From positions 1 to 39,061 of the forward strand of contig CAXUJF010000006.1 in assembly GCA_964250865.1 (NCBI GenBank): DNA of 39,061 nt, written 5' to 3'. This DNA comes from an uncultured Streptosporangiaceae bacterium. GTDB taxonomy: Bacteria > Actinomycetota > Actinomycetes > Streptosporangiales > Streptosporangiaceae. Made by a program: the position numbers and the translations under genes. The notes beneath the pieces were generated by a model that was not told where the DNA came from, searched no databases, and saw only the letters and a program-made list of their open reading frames with translations. Positions 9,973-32,842 of this stretch are shown here, piece after piece; the first letter of the stretch is position 1; each line of letters starts with the position of its first letter.

Positions 9973-9982
9973 ACTGGGACTG

Positions 9983-12404: not shown

Positions 12405-12417
12405 TTCCGTGATCCTC

Positions 12418-13848: not shown

Positions 13849-13880
13849 GGTGCGATCGCACCTGAGGGGATCACCCCCTG
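13849..13880 (-). terminator. Palindrome plus hairpin closing the tape-measure operon
   Basis: Perfect 14-bp palindrome GGTGCGATCGCACC (13849-62) and hairpin AGGGG-ATCA-CCCCT (13865-79), directly after the stop at 13894. Confidence 0.45.
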
Positions 13881-13893
13881 CCGCCGATCGCCG

Positions 13894-14307
13894 CTACCGG
13901 GAGCGAGCCTTCTTGCCGCGGCCCTTGGCCGGGGTCTGCTGGCCAGAGTCTTCCTGCGCCTCCGACATGATGCGCGTAGCCGCACTGATAACGGTCTGCA
14001 CGATTTCATCGGTCAGGGCCGGATACTCGAGCAGCGCACGCCAGCCGTCGCCGAGCAGGGCATCCATCACGAAGTCCTGCGCAACGCCTGCGCCGTTCTT
14101 CCACCGAAGATGCGTGTACTGCAGCCGCTCGTTCGGCCGGAGCCTGGTCCGCATCGTGTAGGCGGTGCCGTCGAGGCTGAACACTGGGACGCGCTCGCTA
14201 ATGTCTTCCGGCGGGACGTCCGTCCTGATCATGATCACGTCGGGCTTGCTGGCGTCATCCTGAGCCTCGGCGCCCTGGTCGCTCTTGGCGGATGCGGTGG
14301 CGGTCAT
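13894..14307 (-). CDS. hypothetical protein with a basic tail (last gene of the operon)
   Basis: 137-aa ORF with an ATGA overlap at 14304-07. The VPVFSLDGTAYTM pattern is faintly reminiscent of phage tail assembly chaperones. Confidence 0.6.
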   Translation of the reverse strand: MTATASAKSDQGAEAQDDASKPDVIMIRTDVPPEDISERVPVFSLDGTAYTMRTRLRPNERLQYTHLRWKNGAGVAQDFVMDALLGDGWRALLEYPALTDEIVQTVISAATRIMSEAQEDSGQQTPAKGRGKKARSR

Positions 14308-14588
14308 TTACTTCCCTTTCGTCTTCCACTGCTCTGACTGTTGGCCCTGGCTTGTGCCTGACTCGGCCCAACCCGGCGAGCCGTGCGTCTCGCCGCGTTG
14401 CCCGAGTGAACGTCGCGGAGCCGGTCGGCGACTGCCCGCGTGATCTTCTTGGCGGCCGGGCTTTTTGCCGCCGCCGCGCGGCGTTCCGCCCCGGCGACTT
14501 CCTTACGCCCAATCGGGCCGACCGGCTGCGGCTTGGCCTTGGCTGCCTTTTTGCCGCTGGTCTTCCCGGCGGCCCGATTGGGCGGCAT
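14304..14588 (-). CDS. Poly-basic Lys/Ala/Pro/Arg-rich protein (histone H1/HU-tail-like)
   Basis: ATG at 14588, 2 nt after the upstream stop. MPPNRAAGKTSGKKAAKAKPQP...AAKKITR...RRKGSK. Confidence 0.55.
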   Translation of the reverse strand: MPPNRAAGKTSGKKAAKAKPQPVGPIGRKEVAGAERRAAAAKSPAAKKITRAVADRLRDVHSGNAARRTARRVGPSQAQARANSQSSGRRKGSK

Positions 14589-14590
14589 CG

Positions 14591-15286
14591 TCACCCTCGC
14601 CGCTTCTGGGCCGGAACGCCGAGGTGGACGAGTTTGCCCTGATGTCCCCACTCGGTGACAACGTGCGGGTCGGCATCCTGGACGTCTTGCACGGTGATCT
14701 CGCCGTCATAGTCGGCGGTCAGCTGCCTCCGGCGAACTGCCTTGCGGACACGAGGGTCACTGATCTGATCGGGGTCAAGGATGGGAACGACTTCATCGCC
14801 GGTCGGCGGATATCCGAGTCCGCGCAGCTGCCCACGCTGCTGGGCGTCGAAAATCAGCGCCGGATTTTCCTGCTGGGCACGGTGTACGTCATCCATCGTC
14901 CACTGGCGCTGCTCGTCAGCGACTTGGTGCTGCGGCTGCTCGGCAGGCGCGGTGCTGGGCGCGGTTGACCGGATGGCCTCGCCAAGCGCCTCGGCGAATC
15001 CCTCGGCCGTGGGGTCAAGGCTGCCGACCTTGGCCAAGAATGCCCGCGAGTCGAGCAAGCGGTCGGGGTCGGCCCCGGCGGCCATGGCGGCACGGTAGGC
15101 GGCGAGCTCCGCCTGCGCCTGGCGGCTGCCCTGCTCGGCTCGTGTCGCCTGCTGCTGGGCTGAGTCGGCGTCACGGCGGAGCTGGGCCGGATCCGGTGGC
15201 GCTTCCTTGACGCCGAGCGCGACCGCCAGCTGTTCGCGCTGCGCCTCGGGCAGGTCGGCGAACGGGCTGGCAGCGTCCCAGCTCAT
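14591..15286 (-). CDS. Scaffold-like helical acidic protein with a duplicated C-terminal motif
   Basis: ATG at 15286 overlaps the upstream stop (ATGA). Ala/Gln/Glu-rich. Motifs WTMDDVHRAQQENPALIFDAQQRGQLRGLG and ITVQDVQDADPHVVTEWGHQGKLVHLGV. Confidence 0.6.
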   Translation of the reverse strand: MSWDAASPFADLPEAQREQLAVALGVKEAPPDPAQLRRDADSAQQQATRAEQGSRQAQAELAAYRAAMAAGADPDRLLDSRAFLAKVGSLDPTAEGFAEALGEAIRSTAPSTAPAEQPQHQVADEQRQWTMDDVHRAQQENPALIFDAQQRGQLRGLGYPPTGDEVVPILDPDQISDPRVRKAVRRRQLTADYDGEITVQDVQDADPHVVTEWGHQGKLVHLGVPAQKRRG

Positions 15287-16020
15287 GAAATCGCGCCTTC
15301 CATCCAGAGGTCGATTTCGTGCTCGGAAAGCGCCGACAGCTCTCCCGAGGCGATCTGAGCGGCCATCGGGTCGCTGATGTTGTCCATGGCGATCAGGACG
15401 CCGTTCGGGCCGCGCGCGATGACCTTCGGCCGCCACGCTGGCCGCGTCGAATCCACGGCCTGCAGCAGCGCGAGCGCGCCGTCTGCGTTGCCGTCCTGAG
15501 CCTGGCCGAGCACGGCGAGGATCTGCCCGGCGACTTGCTGCACGCGGTTCCGGCGGTGCGTGATGCTGACCGCCGAGCCTTGCCGCTTGACCGCGATGTG
15601 CCCCGAGCTTTCGCGCGGGCCGGATGGCGAGGGCGGTTCGACGCTGAGCGCCTCGGCCGTCTGGGCGAGCGCGGCCACAGCGGCGTCATGGTTGTCGGCG
15701 AGGCGATGCACGCGAGCGCAGGCGTCGGCGACGTCCCTGACGGCCTGGCGCATTTCTGCCAGGTTCGGACTGACTGCGAGCGCGTCGATTTCTTCGCCGA
15801 GGTCGCCCAGGTCGGCCGTGCGCTGTTCGGCTCGCTTGCGCTCAGCCCTGGTTTGCTCGCCTCGGGCGGCCAGGCTGGTATGCCGGGCACGGTCGGCGAG
15901 CGCGTGCAGCCGGTCGAAACTGACCGTCCGGCCTTCCGCTAGCTGGCGTTCGGCGTTGCTGAGATCGGCCTGCGCCGCGGCGGCGTCGGCCTGTGCTGCC
16001 TCTGGTGTCGTCATGGTCAT
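15283..16020 (-). CDS. hypothetical coiled-coil protein
   Basis: ATG at 16020 or 16014 behind AGGGGAG (the ORF extends to 16038). The N-terminal ~100 aa are Ala/Arg/Glu-rich and helical. Confidence 0.6.
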   Translation of the reverse strand: MTMTTPEAAQADAAAAQADLSNAERQLAEGRTVSFDRLHALADRARHTSLAARGEQTRAERKRAEQRTADLGDLGEEIDALAVSPNLAEMRQAVRDVADACARVHRLADNHDAAVAALAQTAEALSVEPPSPSGPRESSGHIAVKRQGSAVSITHRRNRVQQVAGQILAVLGQAQDGNADGALALLQAVDSTRPAWRPKVIARGPNGVLIAMDNISDPMAAQIASGELSALSEHEIDLWMEGAIS

Positions 16021-16457
16021 TAGCTCCCCTGCGGCCATTGGTAGACGGCCACGTTCATGCCGGTCGGCGAGTCCCAGTCAAGCCACACCGATCCGTCGCC
16101 CTGCGCGAACCGATGGCGCGTGAACGGGCCGATGAGGCGGGTCGTACCGGCGGCCACGGGGACGATCAGGTCGTCCTGCATGGTCCGGCCGATTGCGAAC
16201 GTTCCGCCCCGGACGACGCAAGTGTGAGTCATGTCGTCGTCGTTGGAGACCATCACCTGCAGCTTGTCGGCGCCGAACGCGAGGTGCTCGCCGTAGGTGG
16301 CCCGGTCCGTGGTGATGACGTTGCCGCCAATGGCGTCCACGGGGGATTCTGGCTTGAGTGTGACGCTGCCGTCCCTGGTGAGCGGCACGGGTGCGAGCAT
16401 CGTGCGAAACGACTGCTCGGCCTCGTCAGGCTGCTCGGCGATGGCTGACCCGTTCAC
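16020..16457 (-). CDS. hypothetical beta-rich protein
   Basis: 145-aa ORF with a GTG start behind GGAGAG. Overlaps the upstream gene by 32 nt. Confidence 0.6.
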   Translation of the reverse strand: MNGSAIAEQPDEAEQSFRTMLAPVPLTRDGSVTLKPESPVDAIGGNVITTDRATYGEHLAFGADKLQVMVSNDDDMTHTCVVRGGTFAIGRTMQDDLIVPVAAGTTRLIGPFTRHRFAQGDGSVWLDWDSPTGMNVAVYQWPQGS

Positions 16458-16902
16458 TGTCTCTCCGCTCTCGGCCGTAGTCCTCGGCGGACTGGCGATC
16501 TATCTGCCAATCGCGCCCGGCTCGGCGGGCGCGGATGCGGCCCGGTTTTTCCAGCTGACCGCGAGCAAGGCGGCGAACCGATCGGGGGATGACTCCCATG
16601 ACGTCAGCCGCTTCGCTCACGGTCAGCCAGGACCGCTCCGCCACGAGTCTCAGAATGACGGCAGGCTGACCGCTAGCGGTCCTTGCGGCAGCGCGGAGTT
16701 CCTCGCGCAGCTCATCTACCTCTGGCGAGTTGGGCATGACGCCGTTAAGGCGCATCAGCCACTCGTCGGCCGTCGCGAACCTGCGTTCGCTGACCGCGGC
16801 CAGCGCGGGCGGGATGATCACGGCACCGGGGCAAACGGCCGCGCCTGGCGGCACATGATCGGCCGGGACGATGGCCACGACGTGACCCTCCGGGGCGATC
16901 AC
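16426..16902 (-). CDS. MerR/excisionase-type HTH DNA-binding protein
   Basis: C-terminal WLTVSEAADVMGVIPRSVRRLARGQL...AGRDWQIDRQSAEDY matches the HTH_17/excisionase pattern. Confidence 0.6.
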   Translation of the reverse strand: MIAPEGHVVAIVPADHVPPGAAVCPGAVIIPPALAAVSERRFATADEWLMRLNGVMPNSPEVDELREELRAAARTASGQPAVILRLVAERSWLTVSEAADVMGVIPRSVRRLARGQLEKPGRIRARRAGRDWQIDRQSAEDYGRERRDSERVSHRRAA

Positions 16903-16941
16903 CGGCCAGCCGCCCGGCGGTTGGGCGCGGTCGTGTCCTGA

Positions 16942-19900
16942 TTAAGCAAGGCCGACCGCCGTGCTCAGCTTCATTACGATTGCCTGATATTCCTCGGGAG
17001 TGGGTCGCGCTCCGCTGAAGCTGAGATTGAACGTGTTGTGATGGTGGTGAATCTCGCTGGACGTTTGCGCAGGCATCGCAGTGTTCCCGGCCGCAATGTT
17101 GCTTCGCACCATTCCCGCGAATTCGGAGGGAATTACCATTTCGCCCTGATGGATGATCGCCGGGCCGGTCTGCGGGATCGACCAGGAGCCGTCCTCGTAC
17201 CAGCCGTACGCCTGCTCGTGCGCAAGCGCGGCTTCCGGCGTTCCATACCTTTGGGCGATGTAGTTCGCCATCGCCGTAGCCTGCCCGGCATACGTGGTCG
17301 GATTACCGCCATACTGGGCATACTCAGACGCGCCCGAGATGAACTGGGCCATCCCGTAGGCATCGCTGGTGGGGTTTTTCGCGGTCAGGGAAAAGCTCGC
17401 GTCTTCGCGCGCCTCCACACCAAGAAGCGCCTGCAACTGGGCGCCGGTCCAGCCATGTTTCGCCGCCGCCGACGTTAGGGCCGCCACCCCTGAGCTGTTG
17501 GCGACGCCGGCCATGCCGATCCCGCCGCCGCCTGCTGCGGACACCGCCGCAGCCTTGGCTGCAGCCGCCTTAATCGCCGCCGTCACCATTGCTTCGAGAC
17601 TCTGCTCGGCAGCGGTCTCGGTGGTGCCGTACTCGCTGTCAGCGAATTGCCCGAGCGCGGACGCCGTACCGCCGAGCGGATCCGTGGCGTTGACCAGCCC
17701 CCCGGCACCGAATCCGGGGAGCGCCCCCCGCAGGTGGTCGACCGCACCCGCGTTGACCATCGCCGTCGGGACAACCAGCTCGCCAGGCATCGCCATGATC
17801 GGGACGCTGTCCTTGCCGGGAACGCCACCTGTGACAAACATGCCTGCTGCCGCTGGCTCGAATGCACCCGACGCCGATCGGGTGCCCTTCACAACCGAAG
17901 TGCTGATCGACTCCTCGTTGATCGACCACTTGCCCTCGGCGTTGAGCACCAGCTGAATCGCTTTGCTCAGCGGGATCTTCTCAATCCCGCTGACCATCTG
18001 GGCGATCTGTGTTGTGTTCTCGCCCGCCGCCTTACCGGCCGCGACCAGCGAACCAGTCAGATTGTCGGTCATCTTCTGGGCCTGCTGCGATTTCGGCCCA
18101 TAGTCCACGTCAGCTTGGGCAACCGCGTCGATCGCCTTTTGCACACCGGCATACTTCAGGACTGCCTGGTCGAGAGAGCTTTCCAGCGTGCCCGTGATCG
18201 CGTTGGCTTGCTTAGTCATCGACCCGGTGAGTTGGTCTTCCCAGCCCTTGAGATCCGAGACGGCCTTTTTCGCGTCCTCGTTCTTACCCGCGTAGGGCGT
18301 GAGCTTGTCGATCTGCTGCTGAATGTAGCCGGTGACCTGCTTGGTGCTGTCACCGTTCTGAACCATGGCGTTCGCGGCTTGCTCGATCGCGGACGCCTGG
18401 GAGTAGAACGACTGCTGCAGGGTGACCGAGGCGCTGTTGGTGCCCCGCATGGACGCGCCAGCGGCCTCCACGTTCGACTTGAGGGTGTCGAACCCCTGAG
18501 CGACCGTCAGCTGCGCCTGCTGCTCGGACACAAAGTTACCGACCAGTTGCGTGTACGTACTGTCCAGCGCCGTGATTCGCGTCTGGGCACTTAGCGCACT
18601 GTTCCCGAACTCCATCAGGTTGCCGCTGAGCGCCTGGCTCGAGCTGGCCATCGCGCCGTTCTTCTGCAGCCACTTGTCGATGGCGTCGACCGCACCGTCC
18701 GCGCTGTTTTTGAACTTGCCAGCACCGACCCCCGCCAGCGTGGCCATCTGCTCGACCTGCTGCCCGGACAGCCCGTACTGCACTCCGAGCGTGGTCAGCT
18801 GACTGCTGATGTTACTGGCAGCCTCGGCGGCTTGGTGCTGAGCTTCCGTTACAGCGGGGATCGCGGTCGCGTACCCGTCTATGCCGTCGTGCATCTGCTC
18901 AAACGACGTAGCGGCGGCACGGTTGGCGAGGGTCGCCTCCACCGTCGCGCCCTGGCCCTTGACGGTGGAGTCAGTGACCTGCTCTTGCGCGTCGTAAACT
19001 GACTGCAGATTGTCCGCGAACTGGCCGGCACTATCCCCCGATGCCGTGATCTTGGCAGTGAGGTCACTAGTGGAAACGCCGACCTTGCCGGTTACCGTGT
19101 CGGTCATCGACAGCTGATCGGCGAGCTTCTGATACCCGGCGACGTTCAGGCCAGTTGCGTTGTCCTGCTTCGCCATAGTGCCGATCAGGTCGTTCTGCTT
19201 GTTCTCGTAATCGGCGACCTTGTAGCCGATTACACCGATCGCGGCAGTGAACAGCAGAAGGTCCGTCAGCGGATCCGCGAACATCTTGAGCAGCATCCCG
19301 GCCATGCCGCCGCTGGCAAGCTCCATAATCCCGGTGCTGGCTGCCGCCGCGTCGGCCGAGGCGGCAACCTCGTCCATGGCTACCGCTTCGGCGTTAAGGG
19401 CTACGACGGATTCCGCGAACCGCTCATCGGAGGCGGTAAGCGTGGCGTCCAGCTCGACCAGGGCGCCCGGGAGTTCGCCGATGGTGACGCCGAGGCGCTC
19501 GGCCTGCTCCTGCATGGTGAAGAACGAGGCCGCGGCCTCGGTGACCGCACCTGTCGTTTCCGCGAGATCAGACTCAACCTCACGGAGCATCGTGGCCATC
19601 GTGCCAAGCTGCTCATCCATCCCGGCTATCCCGCCGGTCTCGAACTCGGCGGTCATGGCGGCCAGTTCCCCGGAGACTGCCGCGATCTGCGGGTACATGG
19701 CTTCGAGCCGCTCGGACAGGCTGAGCAGCACCTCGTCGCTGGCGCCACCTTCGGCAGCGAACGCGGCGAACCGGGTGTCCAGGGAAGACAGCTCAGCGGA
19801 CAGGTCGGCGGCCTCGGTGGCCATGCCGAACAGCTCGGCCCGCATTGACTCGGCGTCGGCTGCGGCGGCCTTCTCCGCGTCAGACACCCCGTTGAGGCTA

Positions 19901-21042
19901 GCGGTCAGCGGCCCGTAATCCACCGATCCGAAACTGTCGGCGGTCAGTTCGCGCAGCGTGGTCATTTCCTCAGCCACACCGGCCGCCGCCTGCTCAACAC
20001 CGAGCAGCCCGGCGACAGCCTCGGCGGATTCGGAACGCACCCCCTCAAGGGCGGAACCAATCTCGCCGATCGTGCCCGCCGCGTCACCCTCGGCGTTCAG
20101 GCCGACGTTCGCCGAGACGGAACCGAGCTCCTCGTCTAGCCGTTCCTGAAACTCGGCCACGTCCGGAATTGCGGTGACCCGGACGACCATGCCGCCGGTT
20201 TCCTCGTCCAGCGCGGCTTCGAAGTCGGCAGAGTCCGGCAGGACGGTAACCCGCGCGGTCAAGCCGGCCGTTTCCTCGGCGAGCTGATCAGCAAACTGGG
20301 ATAGGTCCGGGGTGATCGATACGGACGCGCTGCCCGCGGCGGCACCTTCCAGGGCGGCGCCGATCTGCCCGGCGGCCCCGGAAACGTCCCCGAGATGGGA
20401 AACGAGCCCGGCACCGAATCCAGCGCCGAGGGTGTTGAGCCGGTCGTTAAGGCCAGCGATTTCGTTACTGAGCACCGGGACAACCCCGGAAGCTCCGGTG
20501 ATGGAGGCGGCCAACTCGTCAACGCCACTCTCGGCCGACAGTGATGCATCGGCGAGGCCGTTCATTGTGCCGTCGAAACCGGTCACTGCTCCGGCGGCGC
20601 TGTCTGCCGCGCCTTGCACACCGGCCAGCTCATCGGCGAGCCCGGCGATCCCGGCTTGGGCGTCGCCGGTACTGGCCGACACGTTGAGGTCGGTGTCCAG
20701 TCCGGATATTTCCTCCGCGAGCGCCTCGGCGCGGCCAAACGCCGCTCCCGTGTTGGCGTTGACGAACAGGGTTGCCTGCTCGCCGTCCGTGCGCTCAATG
20801 AACGCATCGACCTCGGATTGGGCCAGGGTCGTGTTCGCGGCTACGTCGATAGTGGCGGACAAGCCGCCGACCTGCTCATAGACGGCGGCCTCAAAGTCGG
20901 CCATGTTGGGCAGGACCCGGACGGCGAGTTGCAGGCCGCCTAGTTCCTCGTCTAGAGCTGCCGCAAAGTCGGAGGTGTCGGGAGTGACGTCAACATAAGC
21001 TGACGCGATCTCAAAGCCCGATTCGCCCGCCATGTCCGTCAT
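16942..21042 (-). CDS. Tape-measure-like protein with a C-terminal lytic transglycosylase (SLT) domain
   Basis: 1366 aa. Five N-terminal D-F-x-A-x-L-D-E-E-x-G-G modules, long Ala/Gly/Gln helical regions, a hydrophobic core (GMLLKMFADPLTDLLLFTAAIGVIGY) and the SLT-like motif GVEAREDASF..NPTSDAYGMAQF. Confidence 0.8.
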   Translation of the reverse strand: MTDMAGESGFEIASAYVDVTPDTSDFAAALDEELGGLQLAVRVLPNMADFEAAVYEQVGGLSATIDVAANTTLAQSEVDAFIERTDGEQATLFVNANTGAAFGRAEALAEEISGLDTDLNVSASTGDAQAGIAGLADELAGVQGAADSAAGAVTGFDGTMNGLADASLSAESGVDELAASITGASGVVPVLSNEIAGLNDRLNTLGAGFGAGLVSHLGDVSGAAGQIGAALEGAAAGSASVSITPDLSQFADQLAEETAGLTARVTVLPDSADFEAALDEETGGMVVRVTAIPDVAEFQERLDEELGSVSANVGLNAEGDAAGTIGEIGSALEGVRSESAEAVAGLLGVEQAAAGVAEEMTTLRELTADSFGSVDYGPLTASLNGVSDAEKAAAADAESMRAELFGMATEAADLSAELSSLDTRFAAFAAEGGASDEVLLSLSERLEAMYPQIAAVSGELAAMTAEFETGGIAGMDEQLGTMATMLREVESDLAETTGAVTEAAASFFTMQEQAERLGVTIGELPGALVELDATLTASDERFAESVVALNAEAVAMDEVAASADAAAASTGIMELASGGMAGMLLKMFADPLTDLLLFTAAIGVIGYKVADYENKQNDLIGTMAKQDNATGLNVAGYQKLADQLSMTDTVTGKVGVSTSDLTAKITASGDSAGQFADNLQSVYDAQEQVTDSTVKGQGATVEATLANRAAATSFEQMHDGIDGYATAIPAVTEAQHQAAEAASNISSQLTTLGVQYGLSGQQVEQMATLAGVGAGKFKNSADGAVDAIDKWLQKNGAMASSSQALSGNLMEFGNSALSAQTRITALDSTYTQLVGNFVSEQQAQLTVAQGFDTLKSNVEAAGASMRGTNSASVTLQQSFYSQASAIEQAANAMVQNGDSTKQVTGYIQQQIDKLTPYAGKNEDAKKAVSDLKGWEDQLTGSMTKQANAITGTLESSLDQAVLKYAGVQKAIDAVAQADVDYGPKSQQAQKMTDNLTGSLVAAGKAAGENTTQIAQMVSGIEKIPLSKAIQLVLNAEGKWSINEESISTSVVKGTRSASGAFEPAAAGMFVTGGVPGKDSVPIMAMPGELVVPTAMVNAGAVDHLRGALPGFGAGGLVNATDPLGGTASALGQFADSEYGTTETAAEQSLEAMVTAAIKAAAAKAAAVSAAGGGGIGMAGVANSSGVAALTSAAAKHGWTGAQLQALLGVEAREDASFSLTAKNPTSDAYGMAQFISGASEYAQYGGNPTTYAGQATAMANYIAQRYGTPEAALAHEQAYGWYEDGSWSIPQTGPAIIHQGEMVIPSEFAGMVRSNIAAGNTAMPAQTSSEIHHHHNTFNLSFSGARPTPEEYQAIVMKLSTAVGLA

Positions 21043-21386
21043 GTGTCACCGCGCACCTGGTAGAGACTTGGACGCAAGAAAGGACTTGCCGGTACGGTCT
21101 CGGGGCCTACATAACCGGTTGACGGGTGGTAGACCCTATGCCCTAGTTCGACCCAGGCGGCGTAAGTTCGCCCGCCTGCGCCGCCGGTCGCGGACACGAT
21201 GAGCGTGTGACCGTTCAGGTGGTGCTCAATCGAATCCCGCAGCTCGCCCGTCTCCACCGGGCAGTAACGCTGAGCGTCCCCGGCGATCTGCGGGCCGAGC
21301 TTGGTCTCAAACAGCCGGTCAGTAGCCGCGTGGACGTTCTCAAGCCAGTCGGCGCGCATCTGCACCCGGCCCACCCGGCGGCTCAT
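21039..21386 (-). CDS. HK97 gp10-family head-tail adaptor-like protein
   Basis: ATG at 21386 overlaps the XRE stop (ATGA); its own stop overlaps the TMP start. Motifs PVETGELRDSI, YAAWVELG and SPFLRPS are typical of the gp10 family. Confidence 0.7.
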   Translation of the reverse strand: MSRRVGRVQMRADWLENVHAATDRLFETKLGPQIAGDAQRYCPVETGELRDSIEHHLNGHTLIVSATGGAGGRTYAAWVELGHRVYHPSTGYVGPETVPASPFLRPSLYQVRGDT

Positions 21387-21724
21387 GCAGCGGCCCCAGA
21401 GGCGGCAACGGCGGTTCGCGCGCGGGTTCGGTGGGCTGCGGCCTCGGCGCGCAGCTGCCGTATGTAGTCCTGGGCCCACTCGGGAAGATCCGCCAGCGCG
21501 CCCAGCTCGGGACCAGCCGGGGCGTTCGCGTCCATGAAATCGCTGATCTGGGCGCCGAGCGCCTCGGCGAGCGCGAACGCGGTATTGACGCCAGGCGTCA
21601 TGCGGCCCTGCTCATACCGGGTGAGCGTGCCGACTGTGATGCCGCTGATGACGGCGAGCTGCTCGCGGGTCAATCCGCGCGTGGTGCGCGCCTCGGCGAG
21701 CTTGTGACCGGCGAACCTGGCCAT
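21383..21724 (-). CDS. XRE-family HTH regulator heading the operon
   Basis: LAEARTTRGLTREQLAVISGITVGTLTRYEQGRMTP is a canonical Cro/C1 HTH. Confidence 0.8.
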   Translation of the reverse strand: MARFAGHKLAEARTTRGLTREQLAVISGITVGTLTRYEQGRMTPGVNTAFALAEALGAQISDFMDANAPAGPELGALADLPEWAQDYIRQLRAEAAAHRTRARTAVAASGAAA

Positions 21725-22024: not shown

Positions 22025-22105
22025 CAGTTGTGCTTTTGCTGGCGAGTCGCTCGCACTCCCGGTAACCGCTCCGTACAGTTGTGCTTATGAGTAAAAGCAC
22101 AACTA
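22025..22105. promoter_or_regulatory. lox/FRT-like site: 10-bp inverted arms with an 8-bp spacer, plus a third direct copy
   Basis: AGTTGTGCTT (22077-86), spacer ATGAGTAA, AAGCACAACT (22095-104). Direct copy CAGTTGTGCTTTT at 22025-37. The spacer contains the recombinase ATG. Confidence 0.5.
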
Positions 22106-22740
22106 GACGCTTCGGATCGGCTCCCGGGCAGGCTCCGGCGAACAAGGGCCGGAAGTTCCGGGCCCAGGTACTCACCCGCGGTGAGGCCGAGGCGCTTATC
22201 GGGGCCTGCTCGGCGACCTCGAGGACGGGAGTGCGTAACCGGGCGCTGATCGTCGTGCTGTGGCGCGGTGGCCTGCGCATCGCCGAGGCGCTCGCGCTGG
22301 CGGTCGCCGACGTCGAGCCCGGGCGCGGCACGGTGCGCGTGATGGACGGCAAGGGCGGCAAGCCCCGGACGGTCGGCCTTGACCCGGGCGCGATGGCGAC
22401 CGTACAGCGGTGGATAGACATGCGCCGGGCGGCAGGCGGACGTCGCGGGCCGGTGTTCTGCACACTCGCCGGGGATCCGCTCTCGCCTCAGTACGTGCGG
22501 GCGATGCTCGCGCGCCTCGCCGACCGGGCCGGTGTCGACAAGCGCGTCGCGCCTCACCAGTTGCGCCACACGCTCGCGGCCGAGATGGTGGCCGAGGGCG
22601 TGCCCATGCCAATCATCCGGGACCAGCTCGGGCATAGCAGCTTGGCGGTCACTGACAGGTATCTGCGGGACGTGGCACCAGGCGAGGTGATTGCTGCGAT
22701 GCAGCGACGGGAGTGGGCCGAGCCGGGGCGGCAAGCGTGA
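22087..22740 (+). CDS. Short tyrosine recombinase (catalytic domain only)
   Basis: 217 aa. All catalytic signatures are present: GGLRIAE (R), GKGGKPRTV (K), HQLRHT (HxxR), LGHSSLAVTDRY (H..Y). There is no N-terminal core-binding domain. Confidence 0.85.
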   Translation: MSKSTTRRFGSAPGQAPANKGRKFRAQVLTRGEAEALIGACSATSRTGVRNRALIVVLWRGGLRIAEALALAVADVEPGRGTVRVMDGKGGKPRTVGLDPGAMATVQRWIDMRRAAGGRRGPVFCTLAGDPLSPQYVRAMLARLADRAGVDKRVAPHQLRHTLAAEMVAEGVPMPIIRDQLGHSSLAVTDRYLRDVAPGEVIAAMQRREWAEPGRQA

Positions 22741-26488: not shown

Positions 26489-27283
26489 TCAAGTTTCCCC
26501 ACTGCGACCGCCTCGGCGATGGTGCATGGCGGTGTAGGACTCCCGTTCGATCGCCCTGAGCTTCCGCTGCCGCCGCTGCCGGGCCTTGAAGGCGTGCCAG
26601 TCGTTGATGGCATCTGCGTTCCTGCCGATCTTGGCCAGGTTGCCTGACGTGAGGTACATCAGGTGATCAGCAATCGCCACGGCCTCGCCCGACCCGATCA
26701 GACCGGGCGGCCATGGCAGGTCGCCGCGCCGAGCGGCGACCTGCGCCTGGTGCAGTCGGTCAATCGCATCCGGGTAGAGGCCGCCGAGTGCGGCCACTGC
26801 GTAGGGCGCGAGCAGCACGGCCGGGACCGGAAGGCCATCGCCGAGGTTTCGCAGAGCGTGCCGCTTGTGCGTTCGTTCCGACCATGGCGATTCAGCGATG
26901 AGGGACGGACCTGCGGCGTCGCACAACTCTCGGGTGAGCGGCACGACGTTCTCGCAGTCGATCGCCCACGCGAGCCATGCCAGCGTCGAACGCCTCGGCC
27001 GCCGCTGGCCGCGTTCAAGCCGGGAGATGGTTGACCGGGCGACCCCCGACCGCCTCTCCATGTCGAGCGTGCTCATCTCCCCGGCGATGCGCATCTCGCG
27101 GACGAGCTTGCCGACACCGGCCGCGATAAGTTCCTGCTCGAAATCTGGCGGGCGCCCGGTGACCGGTACGCCGTTGACGCAGCGCACGACATACTGCGGA
27201 CCCGGCCGAGGTGCCGCAACATTGTTCGTCTGGTCATTGGATTGATCCAGAGTCGCTGACCTGCGGTTATGCGATATAGCCAT
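26489..27283 (-). CDS. XRE-family HTH regulator
   Basis: MSTLDMERRSGVARSTISRLERGQRRP is a Cro/C1-type HTH. 264 aa. Confidence 0.75.
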   Translation of the reverse strand: MAISHNRRSATLDQSNDQTNNVAAPRPGPQYVVRCVNGVPVTGRPPDFEQELIAAGVGKLVREMRIAGEMSTLDMERRSGVARSTISRLERGQRRPRRSTLAWLAWAIDCENVVPLTRELCDAAGPSLIAESPWSERTHKRHALRNLGDGLPVPAVLLAPYAVAALGGLYPDAIDRLHQAQVAARRGDLPWPPGLIGSGEAVAIADHLMYLTSGNLAKIGRNADAINDWHAFKARQRRQRKLRAIERESYTAMHHRRGGRSGET

Positions 27284-28715: not shown

Positions 28716-30323
28716 TCACTCGGTGGCCTCGTCCACGCGCCACGTGTTGACCTTGGTCCGCTTGTCCTGCTCGCAGCGCAGCACGAACGATCCGCGCCAG
28801 CGGCCGATCTGCCCGGCGAGGATCTTGCCCGCCGACCTCGCGGGCGACTGCATTGCCTTGCTGCGTGGGAGGTTGAACGTCCCTTCCCACGGATCGAGGC
28901 CGCCGGGCGGCACGTCGGCCGAGGCGCACAGCTCAGCCGCGGTGAGCCACCGTTCGCCGTGGATCGTGCGCCACTGGGCGAAGAACGCCGTCCACTGGGA
29001 CTCTTCATCGTCGATGTTCCGCACGGTGTCGACGTTGGCGAGGAACCCGCCGATGCCGTGGTGAGCGAGGAACCCGCCGACCGCCTCGGCCCACGGCGTG
29101 AACTGCCGCATGGTGAGGCCCTGGTGCCGGGGTGCCCCGTTGCGTGTCCAGTCGGCGACCAGGACGAGCAGGTGCCACAGAACGTCCCGCTGGTTGTCCG
29201 GGGCGAGGATCCACTGATCGAGGTGGGGGATCTCGAATCCGGTACGGTCTTCCGGCCGCGGGGTGTCGGGGTTGAGGCCGACCAGGACCGCACGTGTCCG
29301 CATGTCGCCACCGAGCCGCAGGTTATTGCCCGTTGCCGTCCATACGCGGTCATTGGCGAACGACGCCGTTGAGTTTTTCCCGAGCAGCCGGTCGGCCCAC
29401 GTCCGGTCAGTGATCAGCCGTGCGAGCACGGGTGAGTCAATGGCGGTTCCCTCGGCGAGGTTGTCGAAGATGATCGTGCCGACCGGATCGGCGAGAACCG
29501 ACGTGATCGCCTTGCGGAGTTCCTCGTCCGAGTTCGTCCACGTGAGCACGCGCTGCCCGTAGAGCATCCCGAGGCCGCAGGTCAGGATCGTTTTTCCTGA
29601 GCTGGGCATGGTCGACGTGACGACGCCGAACGGGATGAGCGTGCGCAGATAGGACCGCAGGACGGGGGTTACCAGCAGCGCGAGGTAATTCGCCTTGTCC
29701 GCGTCGCCGACCCATGGGAAGTCACCCAGGAAACGGTGCAGGAGAAACTCGCGCGCGGCCCGTACCTGCATCGCGCTCGGCTCGGCCGGGACCGGCTTGA
29801 GCGGCACCTTGCTGGCCAGATACAGGCCGGTCGCCCGGTCGTACCCGGCCGTCTGCAGCAGCGACCCGTCAGGCCGCAGGACCGGGGCCCCGACGATGCC
29901 GTAGAGCGGCTGCAGGTCCGGCCACTCTTTCGGCGCGAGCGCGGCGGCGAGCACACTCGGCGGCGGCGTCACTTCCTCCCGGTCAGCCTTCGGCCGGCCC
30001 TTGTCGTCCTTCCGCATGACGGTCTTGTAGGTGAACGTGTTCGCGGCCAGGAGGGCGGCCAGCTCAGGCGCGCGTATCTCGCTGGCCGTGACCGGAAGCG
30101 GCGAGTCTTCATCGCCCGACGCGGCACCCGGCGTTCCCGATACGCGCTCCACGTGGACGACCTGACCGGCACTGACGTAGGTACCGGGGATCGTGCCCGC
30201 GTCGATCGCGTCGCGCAGCGCCCGAATGGTGACCGGGCCCGTGCCCGTCTCAATCGGCGGCTTATCCCCGCCGGGGCTGACGGAGTGCAGAACGAGAGCG
30301 CTCGTCCCGTCAATGTCGCTCAC
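28716..30323 (-). CDS. SF3-type P-loop helicase (phage/plasmid primase-associated)
   Basis: 535 aa. Walker A TSTMPSSGKT, Walker B-like GTIIFDN, motif C-like VWTATGNN. GTGA-coupled to the Prim-Pol gene. Confidence 0.75.
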   Translation of the reverse strand: MSDIDGTSALVLHSVSPGGDKPPIETGTGPVTIRALRDAIDAGTIPGTYVSAGQVVHVERVSGTPGAASGDEDSPLPVTASEIRAPELAALLAANTFTYKTVMRKDDKGRPKADREEVTPPPSVLAAALAPKEWPDLQPLYGIVGAPVLRPDGSLLQTAGYDRATGLYLASKVPLKPVPAEPSAMQVRAAREFLLHRFLGDFPWVGDADKANYLALLVTPVLRSYLRTLIPFGVVTSTMPSSGKTILTCGLGMLYGQRVLTWTNSDEELRKAITSVLADPVGTIIFDNLAEGTAIDSPVLARLITDRTWADRLLGKNSTASFANDRVWTATGNNLRLGGDMRTRAVLVGLNPDTPRPEDRTGFEIPHLDQWILAPDNQRDVLWHLLVLVADWTRNGAPRHQGLTMRQFTPWAEAVGGFLAHHGIGGFLANVDTVRNIDDEESQWTAFFAQWRTIHGERWLTAAELCASADVPPGGLDPWEGTFNLPRSKAMQSPARSAGKILAGQIGRWRGSFVLRCEQDKRTKVNTWRVDEATE

Positions 30324-31210
30324 GCGGCCCCCTGACGGGGCGTGCTGGCGCCCGCGCGGAATCCCGATGCGATCGTGCGCCGTGTCTCGCCCGGCCGCTG
30401 GCCGACCTGCTGCGCCGCTGCCGCGAGCGCCTCGGCTGCGGTGTCCTCGTCCAGGGCCCCGGCCGCGACGACGCTGCCGACCTTGAGCGCCGCCGTGAAC
30501 AGCGCGTCATTGTGCTGGCCGTCCGGGGAGTCGAGCACCCGTTGCACTTCACCGCGCAGCACTGCCTCGGCGTAGCGGTTCGCGCGGCCAAGGTCGGGCA
30601 GCTGGGCGACGTTGTTCCGTGCCGGGCGTTCCGGCTCACGCAGGCGTTCCGTCCAGACATCAGGCAGCGGCGTAAGTGCCCGGCGCCAGTCGGCACGCCA
30701 CTCGTAAGGCTCACCCGTCCGGGGATGCCGTGAGGGCGCGACCACGATGTAACCGCCGTCTGCCTTGACGTCGACCCCGATGCCGCCTTTACGGGCGCCT
30801 GACGGGATCCGCACGCCGGGGTGCGAGTAGATCAGGTGATATCCGCCGCCGCCGGTTCGCTGGGCCAGCGTCCGGGGCAGCTCGCCCGCTTCCATCGCCG
30901 CCCGCATGGTCGGCAGGCCGTGCGGCGCGTCCACGTCGATTACCACCGTGCCCGAGGCGGCCCCGGTGCGGACGGCGAGCAGGCCGCGCGGGTAGCGGCG
31001 GATCATCTCGGCCGCCCGGTCGGCGTCCAGCGTGGCCGCATAGAGCGCGTGACAAGACAGGCACGTGCAGGCTTCCATTTGCTCGGCGGTCGTGTGCTGC
31101 TCGCGGCACGGATCGCACAGCGCCACGGGCACCTTGCTCGCGGAGAGCACGAACACGGGCCAGCCCCGGCCGATGTACGCTCGCGCGGCGGCGAGCTGGT
31201 CGGCCGTCAC
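30320..31210 (-). CDS. Bifunctional DNA primase/polymerase (Prim-Pol domain)
   Basis: YIGRGWPVFVL, VVIDVDAPHG, TGGGGYHLIY and VDVKADGGYIVVAPS are the AEP Prim-Pol motifs. GTGA overlaps on both sides. Confidence 0.85.
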   Translation of the reverse strand: MTADQLAAARAYIGRGWPVFVLSASKVPVALCDPCREQHTTAEQMEACTCLSCHALYAATLDADRAAEMIRRYPRGLLAVRTGAASGTVVIDVDAPHGLPTMRAAMEAGELPRTLAQRTGGGGYHLIYSHPGVRIPSGARKGGIGVDVKADGGYIVVAPSRHPRTGEPYEWRADWRRALTPLPDVWTERLREPERPARNNVAQLPDLGRANRYAEAVLRGEVQRVLDSPDGQHNDALFTAALKVGSVVAAGALDEDTAAEALAAAAQQVGQRPGETRRTIASGFRAGASTPRQGAA

Positions 31211-32029: not shown

Positions 32030-32145
32030 GGCGATTGCATAGTTTTGCATCTGCTCTGCGATCTGCACACGCTCAGAATGCCCGGGACGTGCCAAGAATG
32101 CAAGCGACTCGCACAGTCGCGCGCCAAAGTCTGGCGATTGCATAG
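32030..32145. promoter_or_regulatory. Divergent switch region with repeated GGCGATTGCATAG / TTGCAT boxes
   Basis: GGCGATTGCATAG at 32030 and 32133. TTGCAT at 32045 and inverted ATGCAA at 32098. Hairpin GCGACT-CGCAC-AGTCGC at 32104-20. Confidence 0.55.
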
Positions 32146-32167
32146 AACCGTGCCTTACAGTCGGCAC

Positions 32168-32842
32168 GTGGACGCGGACGAGGAACAAGAGACGAACGGG
32201 GACGGCGACGGCCAAGACCGGCCCCACCAGCACGTGACCGTCAATCAGATCGTGGCCGACAACATGGCGTATTGGCGTAAGGTCGCCGGCCTGACACAGG
32301 AGCAGCTCGGCGAGCGTCTTGGGTGGAGCAACGTCGTCGTATCTGCGGCTGAGCGATCGGCGCACAGCAACCGGCCGCGGTCGTTCACGGTTGATGACCT
32401 TGTGAATCTCGCCATCGCGCTCGGCGTTCCGCTGGCTGCCCTTTTTCTGCCGCCCACTGACGACGGCATGCCTGCCGACTTCATGTTCTCGACCGGCATG
32501 GGGGATGGAAACATGGGCGGTCTGCTGCTGCTGGTCCTAGCGGACGACGGCAGCGATAGCGATGTCATGGACGCTTACCGCAGGCGCCTCGGCGTGGCGG
32601 TTAACGGCTACCTCGACCGGGGCTTGGCCGAGCAGATCGCCAAGATGCTGCGCGACCCGACCAGCGCCGAGATGAACGCCGACCGGATCGCACGGCTCCG
32701 CTTGCACCAAGCCGAGCTTGAGTCGACGTTCACGGCGGCCAACACCGCCGCCCTGACCGCTGCTGCTCAGTTTGGCGAGATAGCCGACGTCCTTGAGAAG
32801 TGGGACGCGGAACACGGCGACGACCAGGAGGTGACCGAATGA
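32168..32842 (+). CDS. XRE-family HTH regulator upstream of int
   Basis: GTG at 32168 within ORF 32045..32842. IVADNMAYWRKVAGLTQEQLGERLGWSNVVVSAAERS is an HTH. The stop overlaps the int start (ATGA). Confidence 0.7.
   Translation: MDADEEQETNGDGDGQDRPHQHVTVNQIVADNMAYWRKVAGLTQEQLGERLGWSNVVVSAAERSAHSNRPRSFTVDDLVNLAIALGVPLAALFLPPTDDGMPADFMFSTGMGDGNMGGLLLLVLADDGSDSDVMDAYRRRLGVAVNGYLDRGLAEQIAKMLRDPTSAEMNADRIARLRLHQAELESTFTAANTAALTAAAQFGEIADVLEKWDAEHGDDQEVTE

What the first reader, a model, noticed from the sequence alone, without database searches (positions are those of the whole stretch)
13894..21724. Nine-gene coupled operon: XRE, gp10-like adaptor, 1366-aa tape-measure/SLT protein, HTH and five unknowns, without tube, chaperone or baseplate genes
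Seen: the minus-strand ORFs from 21724 to 13894 overlap or are separated by less than 40 nt. There are ATGA overlaps at 21383-86, 21039-42, 15283-86 and 14304-07. The operon ends at a palindrome/hairpin (13849-13880). The large protein has five N-terminal D-F-x-A-x-L-D-E-E-x-G-G modules, a hydrophobic core and a C-terminal transglycosylase motif (EAREDASF..SDAYGMAQF). Established: in siphophages the tape measure is preceded by the major tail protein and G/GT chaperones and followed by Dit/Tal. Here it follows an XRE regulator and a head-tail adaptor homolog. It is followed by a MerR/excisionase-type HTH protein, a beta-rich 145-aa protein, a coiled-coil protein, a scaffold-like protein, a poly-basic protein and a 137-aa protein. 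Inference: this is a repurposed virion-derived module. It could remodel a helper phage tail or head for a satellite, or act as a wall-piercing DNA delivery or transfer device.
Basis: partly seen in the sequence, partly recalled or inferred. Interest (0 to 1): 0.8.

Follow-up and report, generated by a model that had tools for sequence, protein, structure and literature searches.

The report
Satellite-like island with tail-hijack operon
A 34-kb island in a tRNA-Ser gene of a high-GC actinomycete carries an operon of borrowed phage parts (tape measure, its chaperone, a neck protein, a cut-down scaffold) but no capsid, portal, terminase or tail-tube genes. It most likely parasitises a helper phage by building hybrid tails and heads, a strategy only recently shown for phage satellites.

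Summary
The 1366-aa protein is a true tape measure protein. It is 39% identical over about 1150 residues to tape measures that sit between tube/chaperone and Dit genes in metagenomic siphophages.

One claim is wrong: the last gene (13894-14307) is a tail assembly chaperone, shown by profile, gene position and structure. ORF2 is a Neck1/HK97-gp10-type protein, 60-78% identical to the same phages. ORF7 is a scaffold homologue with two copies of the C-terminal motif that ends the real phage scaffold.

No capsid, portal, large terminase, tube or Dit gene exists anywhere in the window. The operon lies in a 34.0-kb island flanked by tRNA-Ser repeats, with an integrase, a Prim-Pol/helicase pair and XRE regulators.

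Related islands (metagenomes, one Actinomycetota MAG, Streptomyces sp. RPT161) repeat a core: small recombinase, HTH_17 protein, a 245-aa protein, a truncated scaffold, then a variable tape measure or tailspike.

Best reading is a PICI/PLE-like satellite that builds chimeric tails and redirects capsid assembly. This is a new variant of a known kind. Function is inferred, not shown.

The parts
21383..21724 (-). ORF1: XRE-type HTH regulator (113 aa). Its C-terminal 40 aa resemble the N-terminal 'LPxWAQ...R.E' motif of actinophage scaffolding proteins.
   Evidence: Pfam HTH_3 7.6e-13. phrog_8952 positions 71-111 (2.7e-5), phrog_233 head scaffolding (1.5e-4) and DUF7239 for aa 67-111.
21039..21386 (-). 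ORF2: Neck1 / HK97-gp10-type head-tail joining protein (115 aa). ATGA-coupled to ORF1 and to the tape measure gene.
   Evidence: phrog_5 'tail completion or Neck1' 1.5e-8. 78% identical to phage L014, 66% to L003, 60% to L002, where the homologue lies in the connector gene cluster.
16942..21042 (-). ORF3: tape measure protein (1366 aa) with a transglycosylase-like domain inserted at aa 1182-1316.
   Evidence: 39% identity over aa 1-1151 to the tape measure of phages L003/L004/L014, which is flanked there by tube, chaperone and SPP1_Dit genes. Also homologous to L002 and L011 tape measures. Domain hits. Repeats.
16426..16902 (-). ORF4: HTH_17 / excisionase-type DNA-binding protein. Possibly a small-terminase-like or AlpA-like regulator. 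It is the conserved lead gene of the module in sibling islands.
   Evidence: HTH_17 6.6e-5, TIGR01764 1.3e-4, phrog_57 small terminase 0.0087. 37% identical over 117 aa to the L019 gene 9627-10019, which hits phrog_57 at 4e-6.
16020..16457 (-). ORF5: 145-aa virion-associated protein of unknown role. Homologue of a gene two positions after the major capsid gene in phage L002.
   Evidence: phrog_24894 4.4e-11, phrog_16194 'tail protein' 3e-7. 47% identity over the C-terminal 51 aa, 37% overall, to L002 3404-3862. Structure prediction failed.
15283..16020 (-). ORF6: 245-aa helical protein. It marks the island family and always sits directly upstream of the scaffold-like gene.
   Evidence: 36 relatives of 238-253 aa (one truncated at 180 aa). 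Found next to scaffold-like genes in L015, L019 (Streptomyces sp. RPT161), L020 and L021. Absent from phage records and viral contigs.
14591..15286 (-). ORF7: scaffolding-protein homologue (231 aa) with two copies of the scaffold C-terminal motif (14813-14902 and 14618-14698).
   Evidence: phrog_8952 8.7e-20. tblastn to Streptomyces phage Darolandstone gp6 scaffolding protein and to the L002 scaffold. The motif equals the C-terminus of the L002 scaffold.
14304..14588 (-). ORF8: 94-aa poly-basic protein. Conserved partner that follows the scaffold-like gene.
   Evidence: Homologues after the scaffold-like gene in L005/L008 (42% over 40 aa) and L015 (92 aa, same position).
13894..14307 (-). ORF9: tail assembly chaperone (gpG-like, 137 aa). 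No frameshift extension is evident.
   Evidence: 108 relatives. Six of 66 hit phrog_10551 tail assembly chaperone. The family profile hits the gene between tube and tape measure in L003 (3.7e-27), L011 (6e-19) and L002 (1e-12). AlphaFold2 model pLDDT 85; best BFVD matches are chaperones of Streptomyces phages KimJongPhill (8.5e-6) and Zuko (1.6e-5); best PDB match is the HK97 chaperone 2ob9 (weak, E 0.17).
13849..13880 (-). Two short palindromes after the last gene (GGGG-TGAT-CCCC, GGTGCGATCGCACC). Possible terminator.
   Evidence: Sequence. Fold -33.3 kcal/mol, z = -1.76. Not called by the terminator scan.
22081..22740 (+). Small tyrosine recombinase (219 aa, catalytic domain only), divergent from the operon.
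   Evidence: Phage_integrase 2.7e-34. 50-52% identical orthologues at the same position in L006 and L010. Replaced by a small serine resolvase in L001, L012 and L020.
26489..27283 (-). XRE regulator (264 aa) shared with sibling islands.
   Evidence: HTH_31/HTH_3. 48-50% identical to L001 and L006 genes.
28716..31210 (-). Replication module: Prim-Pol (30320-31210) and a 535-aa primase/helicase-associated protein (28716-30323).
   Evidence: Prim-Pol 2e-32. phrog_19930 DNA polymerase/primase 8e-65.
32045..34287 (+). XRE regulator (32045-32842) and island tyrosine integrase (32800-34287).
   Evidence: HTH_3 9e-6. Phage_integrase 1.4e-19 plus Arm-DNA-bind_4.
603..666 (.). Left copy of the att core (3' part of tRNA-Ser).
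   Evidence: Identical to 34603-34666, exactly 34,000 bp away. None expected by chance.
34602..34692 (-). tRNA-Ser(gct) carrying the right copy of the att core. This is the island's integration site.
   Evidence: ARAGORN. Alignment and pattern searches.

Best explanation
The operon is the morphogenesis-hijack module of an integrated, helper-dependent phage satellite (PICI/PLE-like island) of an actinomycete.

Shown by sequence:
- The island is bounded by tRNA-Ser repeats.
- It has its own integrase, XRE regulators and a Prim-Pol/helicase replication pair.
- It has no major capsid, portal, large terminase, tail tube or Dit gene.
- The operon holds homologues of only some parts of one metagenomic siphophage lineage: a tape measure protein, its assembly chaperone, a Neck1 head-tail joining protein, a head-region protein, and a scaffold homologue that keeps the scaffold's C-terminal motif. 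In other phages that end of the scaffold binds the capsid protein (own knowledge).

Inferred mechanism:
1. When a helper siphophage of that lineage replicates in the cell, the XRE-controlled operon is expressed.
2. The island's chaperone loads the island's tape measure onto the helper's tail-tip initiator.
3. Helper tube subunits polymerise around it, giving chimeric tails. The tape measure's transglycosylase domain helps cross the cell wall on entry.
4. The island's Neck1 protein joins these tails to heads.
5. The scaffold variant, with the conserved 245-aa and basic partner proteins, competes with the helper's scaffold for the capsid protein. This changes or captures capsid assembly for the island's DNA.
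6. The HTH_17 protein may act as small terminase or activator to direct packaging or expression.
For: 1. The large protein is a true tape measure. Its homologues sit in canonical tube-chaperone-tape measure-Dit modules in L002, L003/L004, L011 and L014.
2. ORF9 is a tail assembly chaperone by profile, gene position and structure.
3. Neck1 is 60-78% identical to the same phages.
4. ORF7 is homologous to phage scaffolds. It carries twice the motif that ends the real L002 scaffold (QRQWTRADL...GLLIDLGIAPTRKRR). Sibling islands carry 126-147-aa N-terminally truncated scaffolds, or 60-120-aa proteins, with the same motif. A first regex found the motif in no other gene of the window or the loci searched. 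A broadened regex run on seven later loci also matched one segment of the Dit gene in L003, L014 and L015.
5. No other phage structural gene is in the window. Only 14.8-21.4 kb matches the phages.
6. The architecture is island-like: att repeats, integrase, Prim-Pol.
7. The module recurs in L001, L005/L008, L006, L010, L012, L015, L019, L020 and L021. Each has a recombinase or integrase and none has capsid genes. The tail cargo varies: two unrelated tape measure families, or a tailspike.
8. Gene order differs from the phage order, yet the novel junctions are ATGA-coupled.
9. There is precedent. Vibrio cholerae PLEs encode a tape measure, a chaperone and a hub, build chimeric tails and need the tape measure for transduction (PMC12987554). 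Mycolicibacterium EPIP satellites encode a tape measure (PMC12822802).
Against: - No helper phage, excision, packaging or transfer has been observed. Everything rests on homology and synteny.
- At 34 kb the island is twice the size of typical PICIs, so the need for smaller capsids is unclear.
- About 13 kb of the island (886-13709) is unannotatable. It could hide divergent functions.
- The chaperone has no visible G/GT frameshift partner.
- ORF5, ORF6 and ORF8 have no assigned function.
- The small-terminase reading of ORF4 is weak (E 0.0087; excisionase-type domain is equally likely).
- The tape measure family is rare: 16 homologues among 5.8 billion clusters. Most contexts are metagenomic contigs, and one (L015) might be an assembly chimera.
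Confidence: 0.6

Rival explanations
1. Decaying prophage remnant. The operon is what is left of a siphophage structural region after deletions and rearrangements, and it has no present function.
For: All assignable genes are phage-derived. Most virion genes are missing. The scaffold gene looks split, with its N-terminal motif fused to the XRE protein.
Against: - All nine ORFs are intact, including a 4.1-kb one, with coding-type GC3.
- Junctions between genes that are not neighbours in the phages are ATGA-coupled.
- The HTH_17 / 245-aa / truncated-scaffold / basic-protein core is conserved at 33-46% identity in at least six other islands, including a Streptomyces genome. These always have integrase or replication genes and never capsid genes.
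- Unrelated tape measure families and a tailspike occupy the same module, which indicates selection for tail cargo.
Confidence: 0.15
2. Anti-phage defence by assembly poisoning only. The island does not travel in virions. It expresses decoy tape measure, chaperone, neck and scaffold proteins that spoil assembly of an infecting phage and so protect the population.
For: Satellites and defence overlap. Interference with tail assembly through the tape measure is a known defence route (Rta of PLE11, PMC12987554). Truncated scaffolds that keep the capsid-binding end would compete with the phage scaffold. Membrane proteins with weak superinfection-exclusion hits lie nearby.
Against: - A complete, full-length tape measure with a matching chaperone and a neck protein 78% identical to the phage's is more than a decoy needs.
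- The island has its own integrase and replication module, as mobile satellites do.
- A possible small-terminase-like gene leads the module.
Confidence: 0.15
3. Cell-wall-piercing device of a conjugative or other non-viral transfer element.
For: The large protein has a transglycosylase-like domain and a hydrophobic segment. The island integrates in a tRNA gene, as actinomycete integrative elements do.
Against: - No FtsK/TraB, relaxase or type IV secretion gene was found by Pfam, PHROGs or NCBIfam.
- The transglycosylase domain is an optional insert. It is absent from most homologues, which align only to aa 1-1151.
- A tail assembly chaperone, Neck1 and scaffold have no role outside virion assembly.
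Confidence: 0.03

Closest known systems
Vibrio cholerae PLEs (PICI-like elements) with chimeric tail assembly (Mathur, Boyd et al., Nature 2026, PMC12987554)
   Same: An integrated satellite that carries its own tape measure and tail assembly chaperone while taking tube and other tail parts from the helper. In PLEs the tape measure is needed for transduction. It also carries a capsid-redirecting scaffold-type function (own knowledge: PLE TcaP).
   Different: No sequence relation was found or tested beyond function. The PLE helper is a myovirus, and PLEs also encode a baseplate hub, which is absent here. This island adds a Neck1 protein. It is 34 kb, in a Gram-positive high-GC host, with a Prim-Pol replicon.
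EPIPs, 11-kb satellites of Mycolicibacterium aichiense (Qian et al., bioRxiv 2025, PMC12822802; Alyssa1 OR387110)
   Same: An actinobacterial host. The gene set includes a tape measure, head-tail joining proteins, an HTH protein and a scaffold, with no tube genes. Tails of altered length were seen by microscopy.
   Different: No BLAST homology except a weak match of the tape measure N-terminal repeats (E 6e-4). EPIPs have a serine integrase, an annotated capsid protein and a small terminase. They have no Prim-Pol and were isolated as free particles.
SaPI1 CpmB / PICI capsid-size redirection (own knowledge: Dearborn et al., eLife 2017)
   Same: A small island-encoded protein that shares the capsid-binding C-terminus of the helper's scaffolding protein and competes with it. 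Here, truncated scaffold homologues keep the exact C-terminal motif of a related phage's scaffold. The island layout (integrase, regulators, primase, morphogenesis operon) is also the same.
   Different: The window's version is 231 aa with the motif duplicated. Its effect on capsid size is unknown. Classical PICIs encode no tail parts and are 10-18 kb.
Capsid-forming satellites (cf-PICIs; Streptomyces MulchRoom and MiniFlayer, PMC10690885)
   Same: Satellites of siphophages, some in Streptomyces. Some cf-PICIs carry putative tape measure genes.
   Different: The division of labour is opposite. Those elements encode capsid, portal and terminases and borrow tails. This island encodes none of these and carries tail-assembly parts.
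Siphophage tape measure proteins with peptidoglycan-hydrolase motifs (own knowledge: mycobacteriophage TM4, Piuri and Hatfull 2006)
   Same: Same protein family features: N-terminal repeats, a long helical body, an inserted wall-hydrolase domain, a conserved C-terminal end.
   Different: The gene is not between chaperone and Dit. It follows a neck gene, and its chaperone lies 2.6 kb downstream at the end of the operon.

Membership tests
Phage satellite (PICI/PLE-like chromosomal island) | Integrated element with integrase and flanking att repeats | tested here: met
   A 64-bp identical core at 603-666 and 34603-34666 in tRNA-Ser. Tyrosine integrase at 32800-34287.
Phage satellite (PICI/PLE-like chromosomal island) | Own replication module | tested here: met
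   Prim-Pol 2e-32 plus a 535-aa primase/helicase-associated protein, phrog_19930 8e-65. Homology only.
Phage satellite (PICI/PLE-like chromosomal island) | Lacks the genes needed to make a virion alone (capsid, portal, large terminase, tube) | tested here: met
   No Pfam, PHROG or NCBIfam hit. No tblastn match to related phages outside 14.8-21.4 kb.
Phage satellite (PICI/PLE-like chromosomal island) | Genes that redirect helper assembly or packaging | tested here: inconclusive
   Scaffold variant with the capsid-binding end, tape measure, chaperone and Neck1 are present by homology. Activity is untested.
Phage satellite (PICI/PLE-like chromosomal island) | Helper-dependent induction, packaging and transfer | not testable with these tools
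   Needs host, helper phage and experiments.
Phage satellite (PICI/PLE-like chromosomal island) | Small size (about 10-20 kb) | tested here: not met
   34.0 kb between the att copies. The annotated satellite-like part is about 21 kb (13.4-34.6 kb).
PLE-type chimeric tail module | Satellite-encoded tape measure plus tail assembly chaperone | tested here: met
   ORF3 and ORF9.
PLE-type chimeric tail module | Satellite-encoded baseplate hub | tested here: not met
   No Dit, Tal or hub homologue in the window.
EPIP satellites | Sequence homology and shared gene set (serine integrase, small terminase, adaptor, stopper, capsid protein, tape measure; 11 kb) | tested here: not met
   Reciprocal tblastn with Alyssa1 gave only a weak tape measure N-terminal match (E 6e-4). 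Here the integrases are tyrosine-type, there is no capsid protein, and the island is 34 kb.
Siphophage tape measure protein | Homology to tape measures in canonical tail modules | tested here: met
   39% over 1151 aa to L003/L014, and homology to L002 and L011, each followed by Dit.
Siphophage tape measure protein | Gene located between the chaperone (G/GT) and Dit | tested here: not met
   It is preceded by Neck1 and followed by the HTH_17 gene. The chaperone is the last gene of the operon.
Tail assembly chaperone (gpG-like) | Family, position and fold of known chaperones | tested here: met
   The profile hits the pre-tape-measure gene in three phages. phrog_10551 in six family members. Structure matches to Streptomyces phage chaperones at 8.5e-6 and 1.6e-5.
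Tail assembly chaperone (gpG-like) | Programmed -1 frameshift giving a GT product | tested here: not met
   No downstream ORF in the -1 frame. Only a 54-aa overlapping ORF in the other frame, ending 16 codons past the stop.
CpmB-like alternative scaffold | Shares the C-terminal capsid-binding end of the helper-type scaffold | tested here: met
   The motif occurs twice in ORF7 and at the C-terminus of the L002 phage scaffold and of island proteins in L015, L019, L020 and L021.
CpmB-like alternative scaffold | Changes capsid size | not testable with these tools
   Needs microscopy of particles.
Complete prophage | Large terminase, portal and major capsid protein | tested here: not met
   None detected.
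Actinomycete integrative conjugative element | FtsK/TraB-type translocase or type IV secretion genes | tested here: not met
   No hits.

The most novel reading that the evidence does not exclude
This is a previously undescribed family of integrated actinomycete satellites that reprogramme both ends of the helper's virion at once. They would build private tails with their own tape measure, chaperone and neck protein, or with a tailspike in sister islands. They would build private heads with N-terminally truncated scaffolds that keep only the capsid-binding end. The tail cargo would be swapped between islands, and with the helper itself, by recombination at the tape measure gene. In addition, the operon's XRE regulator carries a scaffold-like tail. 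It could therefore sense the helper's head-assembly proteins directly, as SaPI Stl repressors sense helper proteins.
Probability: 0.3. Interest if true: 0.75.

Novelty: new variant of a known kind. Interest (0 to 1): 0.6.

Why it matters
Satellite-encoded tape measures were shown to work only recently, in Vibrio PLEs, and were seen in Mycolicibacterium EPIPs. This locus would extend chimeric tail assembly to integrated islands of high-GC actinomycetes, including Streptomyces. It combines that with a CpmB-style scaffold mimic and a neck protein.

It also gives a recognisable signature for finding such satellites, which current viral-contig collections miss: small recombinase, HTH_17 protein, 245-aa protein, truncated scaffold with a WTxxDV...GxLxxLG...KRR end, and variable tail cargo. 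It points to a concrete helper lineage for experiments.

Satellites that bring their own tape measure or tailspike could alter host range and gene flow in antibiotic-producing bacteria.

Tried and rejected
- Single-sequence AlphaFold2 of ORF5 gave pLDDT 32 and was useless.
- A word-indexed homologue search found nothing for ORF5.
- tblastn of ORF2, ORF5, ORF6, the L002 152-aa protein and the DUF6941 protein against 50,697 phage records found nothing.
- PDB sequence searches for ORF5 and ORF6 profiles, the 458-aa protein and DUF6941 were uninformative.
- I tested whether the small recombinase flips a promoter or the operon. No convincing inverted repeats appeared in the window or in four sibling loci.
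- I tested whether the module plus small recombinase is a separate nested element. No internal att-like copy exists. The shared 264-aa XRE regulator and the replication genes show it belongs to the larger island.
- I tested whether the roughly 110-aa protein upstream of the tape measure in sibling islands is a chaperone or an ORF5 relative. hhalign found no relation.
- EPIP homology was tested and rejected.
- Scans gave little. The genome-collection scan with the tape measure profile gave one MAG locus. The tape measure scan of viral contigs gave one locus, matching only the transglycosylase-like domain (aa 1189-1286). The ORF6 scan of viral contigs gave none.
- The window's own contig is not on record for a sample look-up, and the host taxon could not be fixed.
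- Four literature searches failed for technical reasons, so coverage of the literature is incomplete.

Full report
**Observation**

The nine minus-strand ORFs from 21724 to 13894 are present as described. The ATGA stop/start overlaps are at 21383-86, 21039-42, 15283-86 and 14304-07. The remaining junctions are +39, -32, -1 and +2 nt. Third-position GC is 0.73-0.88 in all nine, which fits coding sequence in this roughly 67% GC DNA.

The 1366-aa protein has five N-terminal P-D-x-x-D-F...L-D-E-E-x-G-G modules. Three are strict (aa 25, 49, 273) and two degenerate (aa 249, 297). It has one moderately hydrophobic stretch near aa 580-610. It has a transglycosylase-like domain at aa 1182-1316.

The palindromes at 13849-13880 exist. 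They have no T tract and fold only slightly better than shuffled sequence, with z = -1.76. One element of the title, 'without chaperone', is wrong (see gene identities).

**Surroundings**

Two tRNA-Ser(gct) calls lie at 602-692 and 34602-34692. They share an identical 64-bp core exactly 34,000 bp apart. These are the att repeats of a 34-kb island.

Next to the right repeat lie a tyrosine integrase (32800-34287) and an XRE regulator. On the opposite strand are a Prim-Pol (30320-31210), a 535-aa primase/helicase-associated protein and a second XRE regulator (26489-27283). Then comes a small tyrosine recombinase (22081-22740), divergent from the operon.

No major capsid, portal, large terminase, tail tube, Dit or conjugation gene was found anywhere in the window with Pfam, PHROGs or NCBIfam. 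Every ORF of four related phage loci was compared with the window. Only 14.8-21.4 kb matched.

**Gene identities**

- **ORF3, tape measure.** It has only 16 homologues among 5.8 billion protein clusters, none named. Several lie in canonical siphophage tail modules. In L003/L004/L014 the order is tube (Phage_TTP_17), a 134-aa gene, a 74-aa gene, the homologue, then SPP1_Dit. L002 and L011 are similar. Identity is 39% over residues 1-1151. It is therefore a true tape measure protein. The transglycosylase domain is an insert before the conserved C-terminal end, and most relatives lack it.
- **ORF2, Neck1.** It hits phrog_5 (tail completion or Neck1) and is 78%, 66% and 60% identical to a connector-cluster gene of L014, L003 and L002.
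- **ORF9, tail assembly chaperone.** It has 108 relatives of about 100-180 aa, with two longer outliers. Six of 66 hit phrog_10551, tail assembly chaperone. A profile of the family hits exactly the gene between tube and tape measure in L003 (3.7e-27), L011 and L002. The AlphaFold2 model (pLDDT 85) best matches chaperones of Streptomyces phages KimJongPhill and Zuko. In the PDB its best match is the HK97 chaperone, weakly.
- **ORF7, scaffold homologue.** It is homologous to scaffolding proteins of Streptomyces phage Darolandstone (gp6) and of L002.
- **ORF5.** It resembles an L002 gene two positions after the capsid gene. Its role is unknown.
- **ORF4.** It is an HTH_17/excisionase-type protein. 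Its Streptomyces orthologue hits a small-terminase PHROG at 4e-6, but only over the HTH part.
- **ORF1.** It is an XRE repressor-type protein. Its C-terminal 40 residues match the N-terminal motif of scaffolds.

**The scaffold motif**

The real L002 scaffold ends ...QRQWTRADLQGRSGEEIQEAMEQGLLIDLGIAPTRKRR. ORF7 carries this motif twice, at 14813-14902 and 14618-14698.

Sibling islands carry it at the C-terminus of 126-147-aa proteins. These align with only the last roughly 125 residues of the 301-aa phage scaffold. Other siblings carry it in 60-120-aa proteins.

A first regular expression for the motif matched no other gene in any frame of the window or the loci searched. A broadened version, run on seven later loci, also matched one segment of the Dit gene in L003, L014 and L015.

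From established work on P22 and on 80alpha/SaPI1 (own knowledge), the scaffold C-terminus binds the capsid protein. SaPI1 CpmB redirects capsid size by sharing that end. These island proteins have the same design.

**Recurrence**

Island-type contexts of the tape measure family are L001, L005 (same as L008, an Actinomycetota MAG), L006, L010 and L012. All show a small recombinase divergent from an operon of HTH_17 protein, motif-bearing small proteins and the tape measure. The recombinase is a roughly 210-aa tyrosine type or a roughly 200-aa serine type. None of these contexts has capsid or tube genes.

ORF6 defines a wider family of 36 proteins, nearly all of 238-253 aa.

| Locus | Source | Arrangement |
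|---|---|---|
| L019 | Streptomyces sp. RPT161 | Follows an ORF4 orthologue and precedes a scaffold-like gene. Sits in a Prim-Pol/integrase island that also carries an unrelated-family tape measure (phrog_4197, 1e-95). |
| L021 | metagenome | HTH, tape measure with a lysozyme domain, ORF6, scaffold-like. |
| L020 | metagenome | A pectate-lyase-type tailspike replaces the tape measure. |
| L015 | metagenome | ORF6, scaffold-like, basic protein, then a tape measure and Dit 80-91% identical in DNA to phage L003/L014 from the tape measure start onward. |

L015 is either a recombinant with the presumed helper lineage or an assembly chimera. The family was not found in viral-contig collections.

**Mechanism**

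Shown: homology, gene content, island architecture and recurrence.

Inferred: a helper siphophage of the L003/L014/L002 lineage supplies capsid protein, portal, terminase, tube and tail tip. The island supplies a tape measure with its own chaperone, giving chimeric tails, and a compatible neck protein. It also supplies a scaffold variant with partner proteins that captures or resizes capsid assembly. ORF4 may direct packaging or expression.

This mirrors two published cases. Vibrio PLEs encode a tape measure, chaperone and hub, incorporate them into virions and lose about 99.9% of transduction without the tape measure (PMC12987554). Mycolicibacterium EPIPs encode a tape measure and show altered tails (PMC12822802).

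**Rivals**

- **Decaying prophage remnant.** Argued against by intact ORFs, ATGA coupling at junctions that do not exist in the phages, and conservation of the core across diverged islands.
- **Pure decoy-based defence.** Cannot be excluded without experiments.
- **Conjugative or wall-piercing device.** Lacks any supporting gene.

**Comparison and novelty**

The locus works like a PLE/PICI-type satellite but belongs to none of the described families. It has no homology to EPIP Alyssa1 beyond a weak tape measure repeat match. It has no hub as in PLEs. Its division of labour is the opposite of capsid-forming satellites such as Streptomyces MulchRoom and MiniFlayer. At 34 kb it exceeds PICI norms. 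I rate it a new variant of a known kind.

**Limits**

No host, helper or expression data are available. ORF5, ORF6 and ORF8 are unassigned. About 13 kb of the island is unannotated. Most comparative loci are metagenomic. Four literature searches failed.

Noticed in passing
window 602-692 and 34602-34692: Two tRNA-Ser(gct) calls share an identical 64-bp core exactly 34,000 bp apart. These are the att repeats that bound a 34-kb island containing the finding.
   Followed up: yes
window 22081-22740; L006 7840-8475; L010 129-749; L001 7496-8077; L012 2101-2703; L020 8957-9460: A small recombinase always sits divergent from the module. It is a roughly 210-aa tyrosine type (catalytic domain only) in some islands and a roughly 170-200-aa serine resolvase/invertase in others. 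The size suggests resolution or inversion rather than integration. No convincing inverted repeats were found.
   Followed up: partly
window 21383-21505 (C-terminal third of ORF1): The XRE regulator ends in 'DLPEWAQDYIRQLRAEAAAHRTRA'. This matches the N-terminal motif of actinophage scaffolds (phrog_8952 positions 71-111, phrog_233, DUF7239), while ORF7 covers positions 119-233 of the same profile. It is either a split scaffold gene or a regulator with a scaffold-like sensor tail.
   Followed up: partly
window 21645-21661, 21795-21811, 21857-21878: Three copies of CTGATGACGG (one inverted) lie around the ORF1 start and the intergenic region towards the recombinase. They look like operator sites.
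   Followed up: no
window 22822-24118 (minus strand): A three-gene set lies upstream of the small recombinase: 138 aa, 143 aa, then a 138-aa DUF6941 protein. The last two are coupled at 23238. DUF6941 has a weak phmmer hit (3e-4) to the head-to-tail connector gp9 of phage Darolandstone.
   Followed up: partly
window 886-10180 (plus strand): About 18 co-oriented ORFs have coding-type GC3 and almost no Pfam, PHROG or NCBIfam hit. The exceptions are an XRE-type regulator at 7887-9011 and a weak HTH hit in the 458-aa ORF (2600-3976). This is unexplained cargo making up a third of the island.
   Followed up: partly
window 10767-12795 (minus strand): A cluster of small membrane or Pro-rich proteins. 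The 189-aa one (11566-12135) has weak hits to superinfection-exclusion PHROGs.
   Followed up: no
L015 (Ga0116134_1003420) 1-7531: The left 2.2 kb is island-type (70-74% DNA identity to L005). From the tape measure start onward the DNA is 80-91% identical to phage L003/L014, including Dit (97% protein identity). It is either a natural island-phage recombinant or a metagenome assembly chimera.
   Followed up: partly
L001 4471-5247 and 5964-6374: A sibling island encodes a Lipoprotein_Ltp-family protein and a NUDIX protein. In Streptococcus phage TP-J34, Ltp blocks tape-measure-dependent DNA entry (own knowledge). An island that carries both an Ltp-like protein and its own tape measure is suggestive.
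   Followed up: no
L020 12312-14129; L010 6486-8893: Sibling modules carry receptor-binding cargo. L020 has a 605-aa pectate-lyase/K1-lyase tailspike in place of the tape measure. L010 has a 117-aa fibre-assembly-like protein plus a 684-aa protein after the tape measure.
   Followed up: partly
L019 (Streptomyces sp. RPT161, JAPZVN010000023.1) 9627-18285: A cultured Streptomyces genome carries the ORF4-ORF6-ORF7 trio. Its scaffold-like C-terminus is nearly identical (ITVQDVQDADP...GKLAHLGIPAQKRRG). It also carries a 1324-aa tape measure of a different family on the opposite strand. This strain is a tractable system for experiments.
   Followed up: partly
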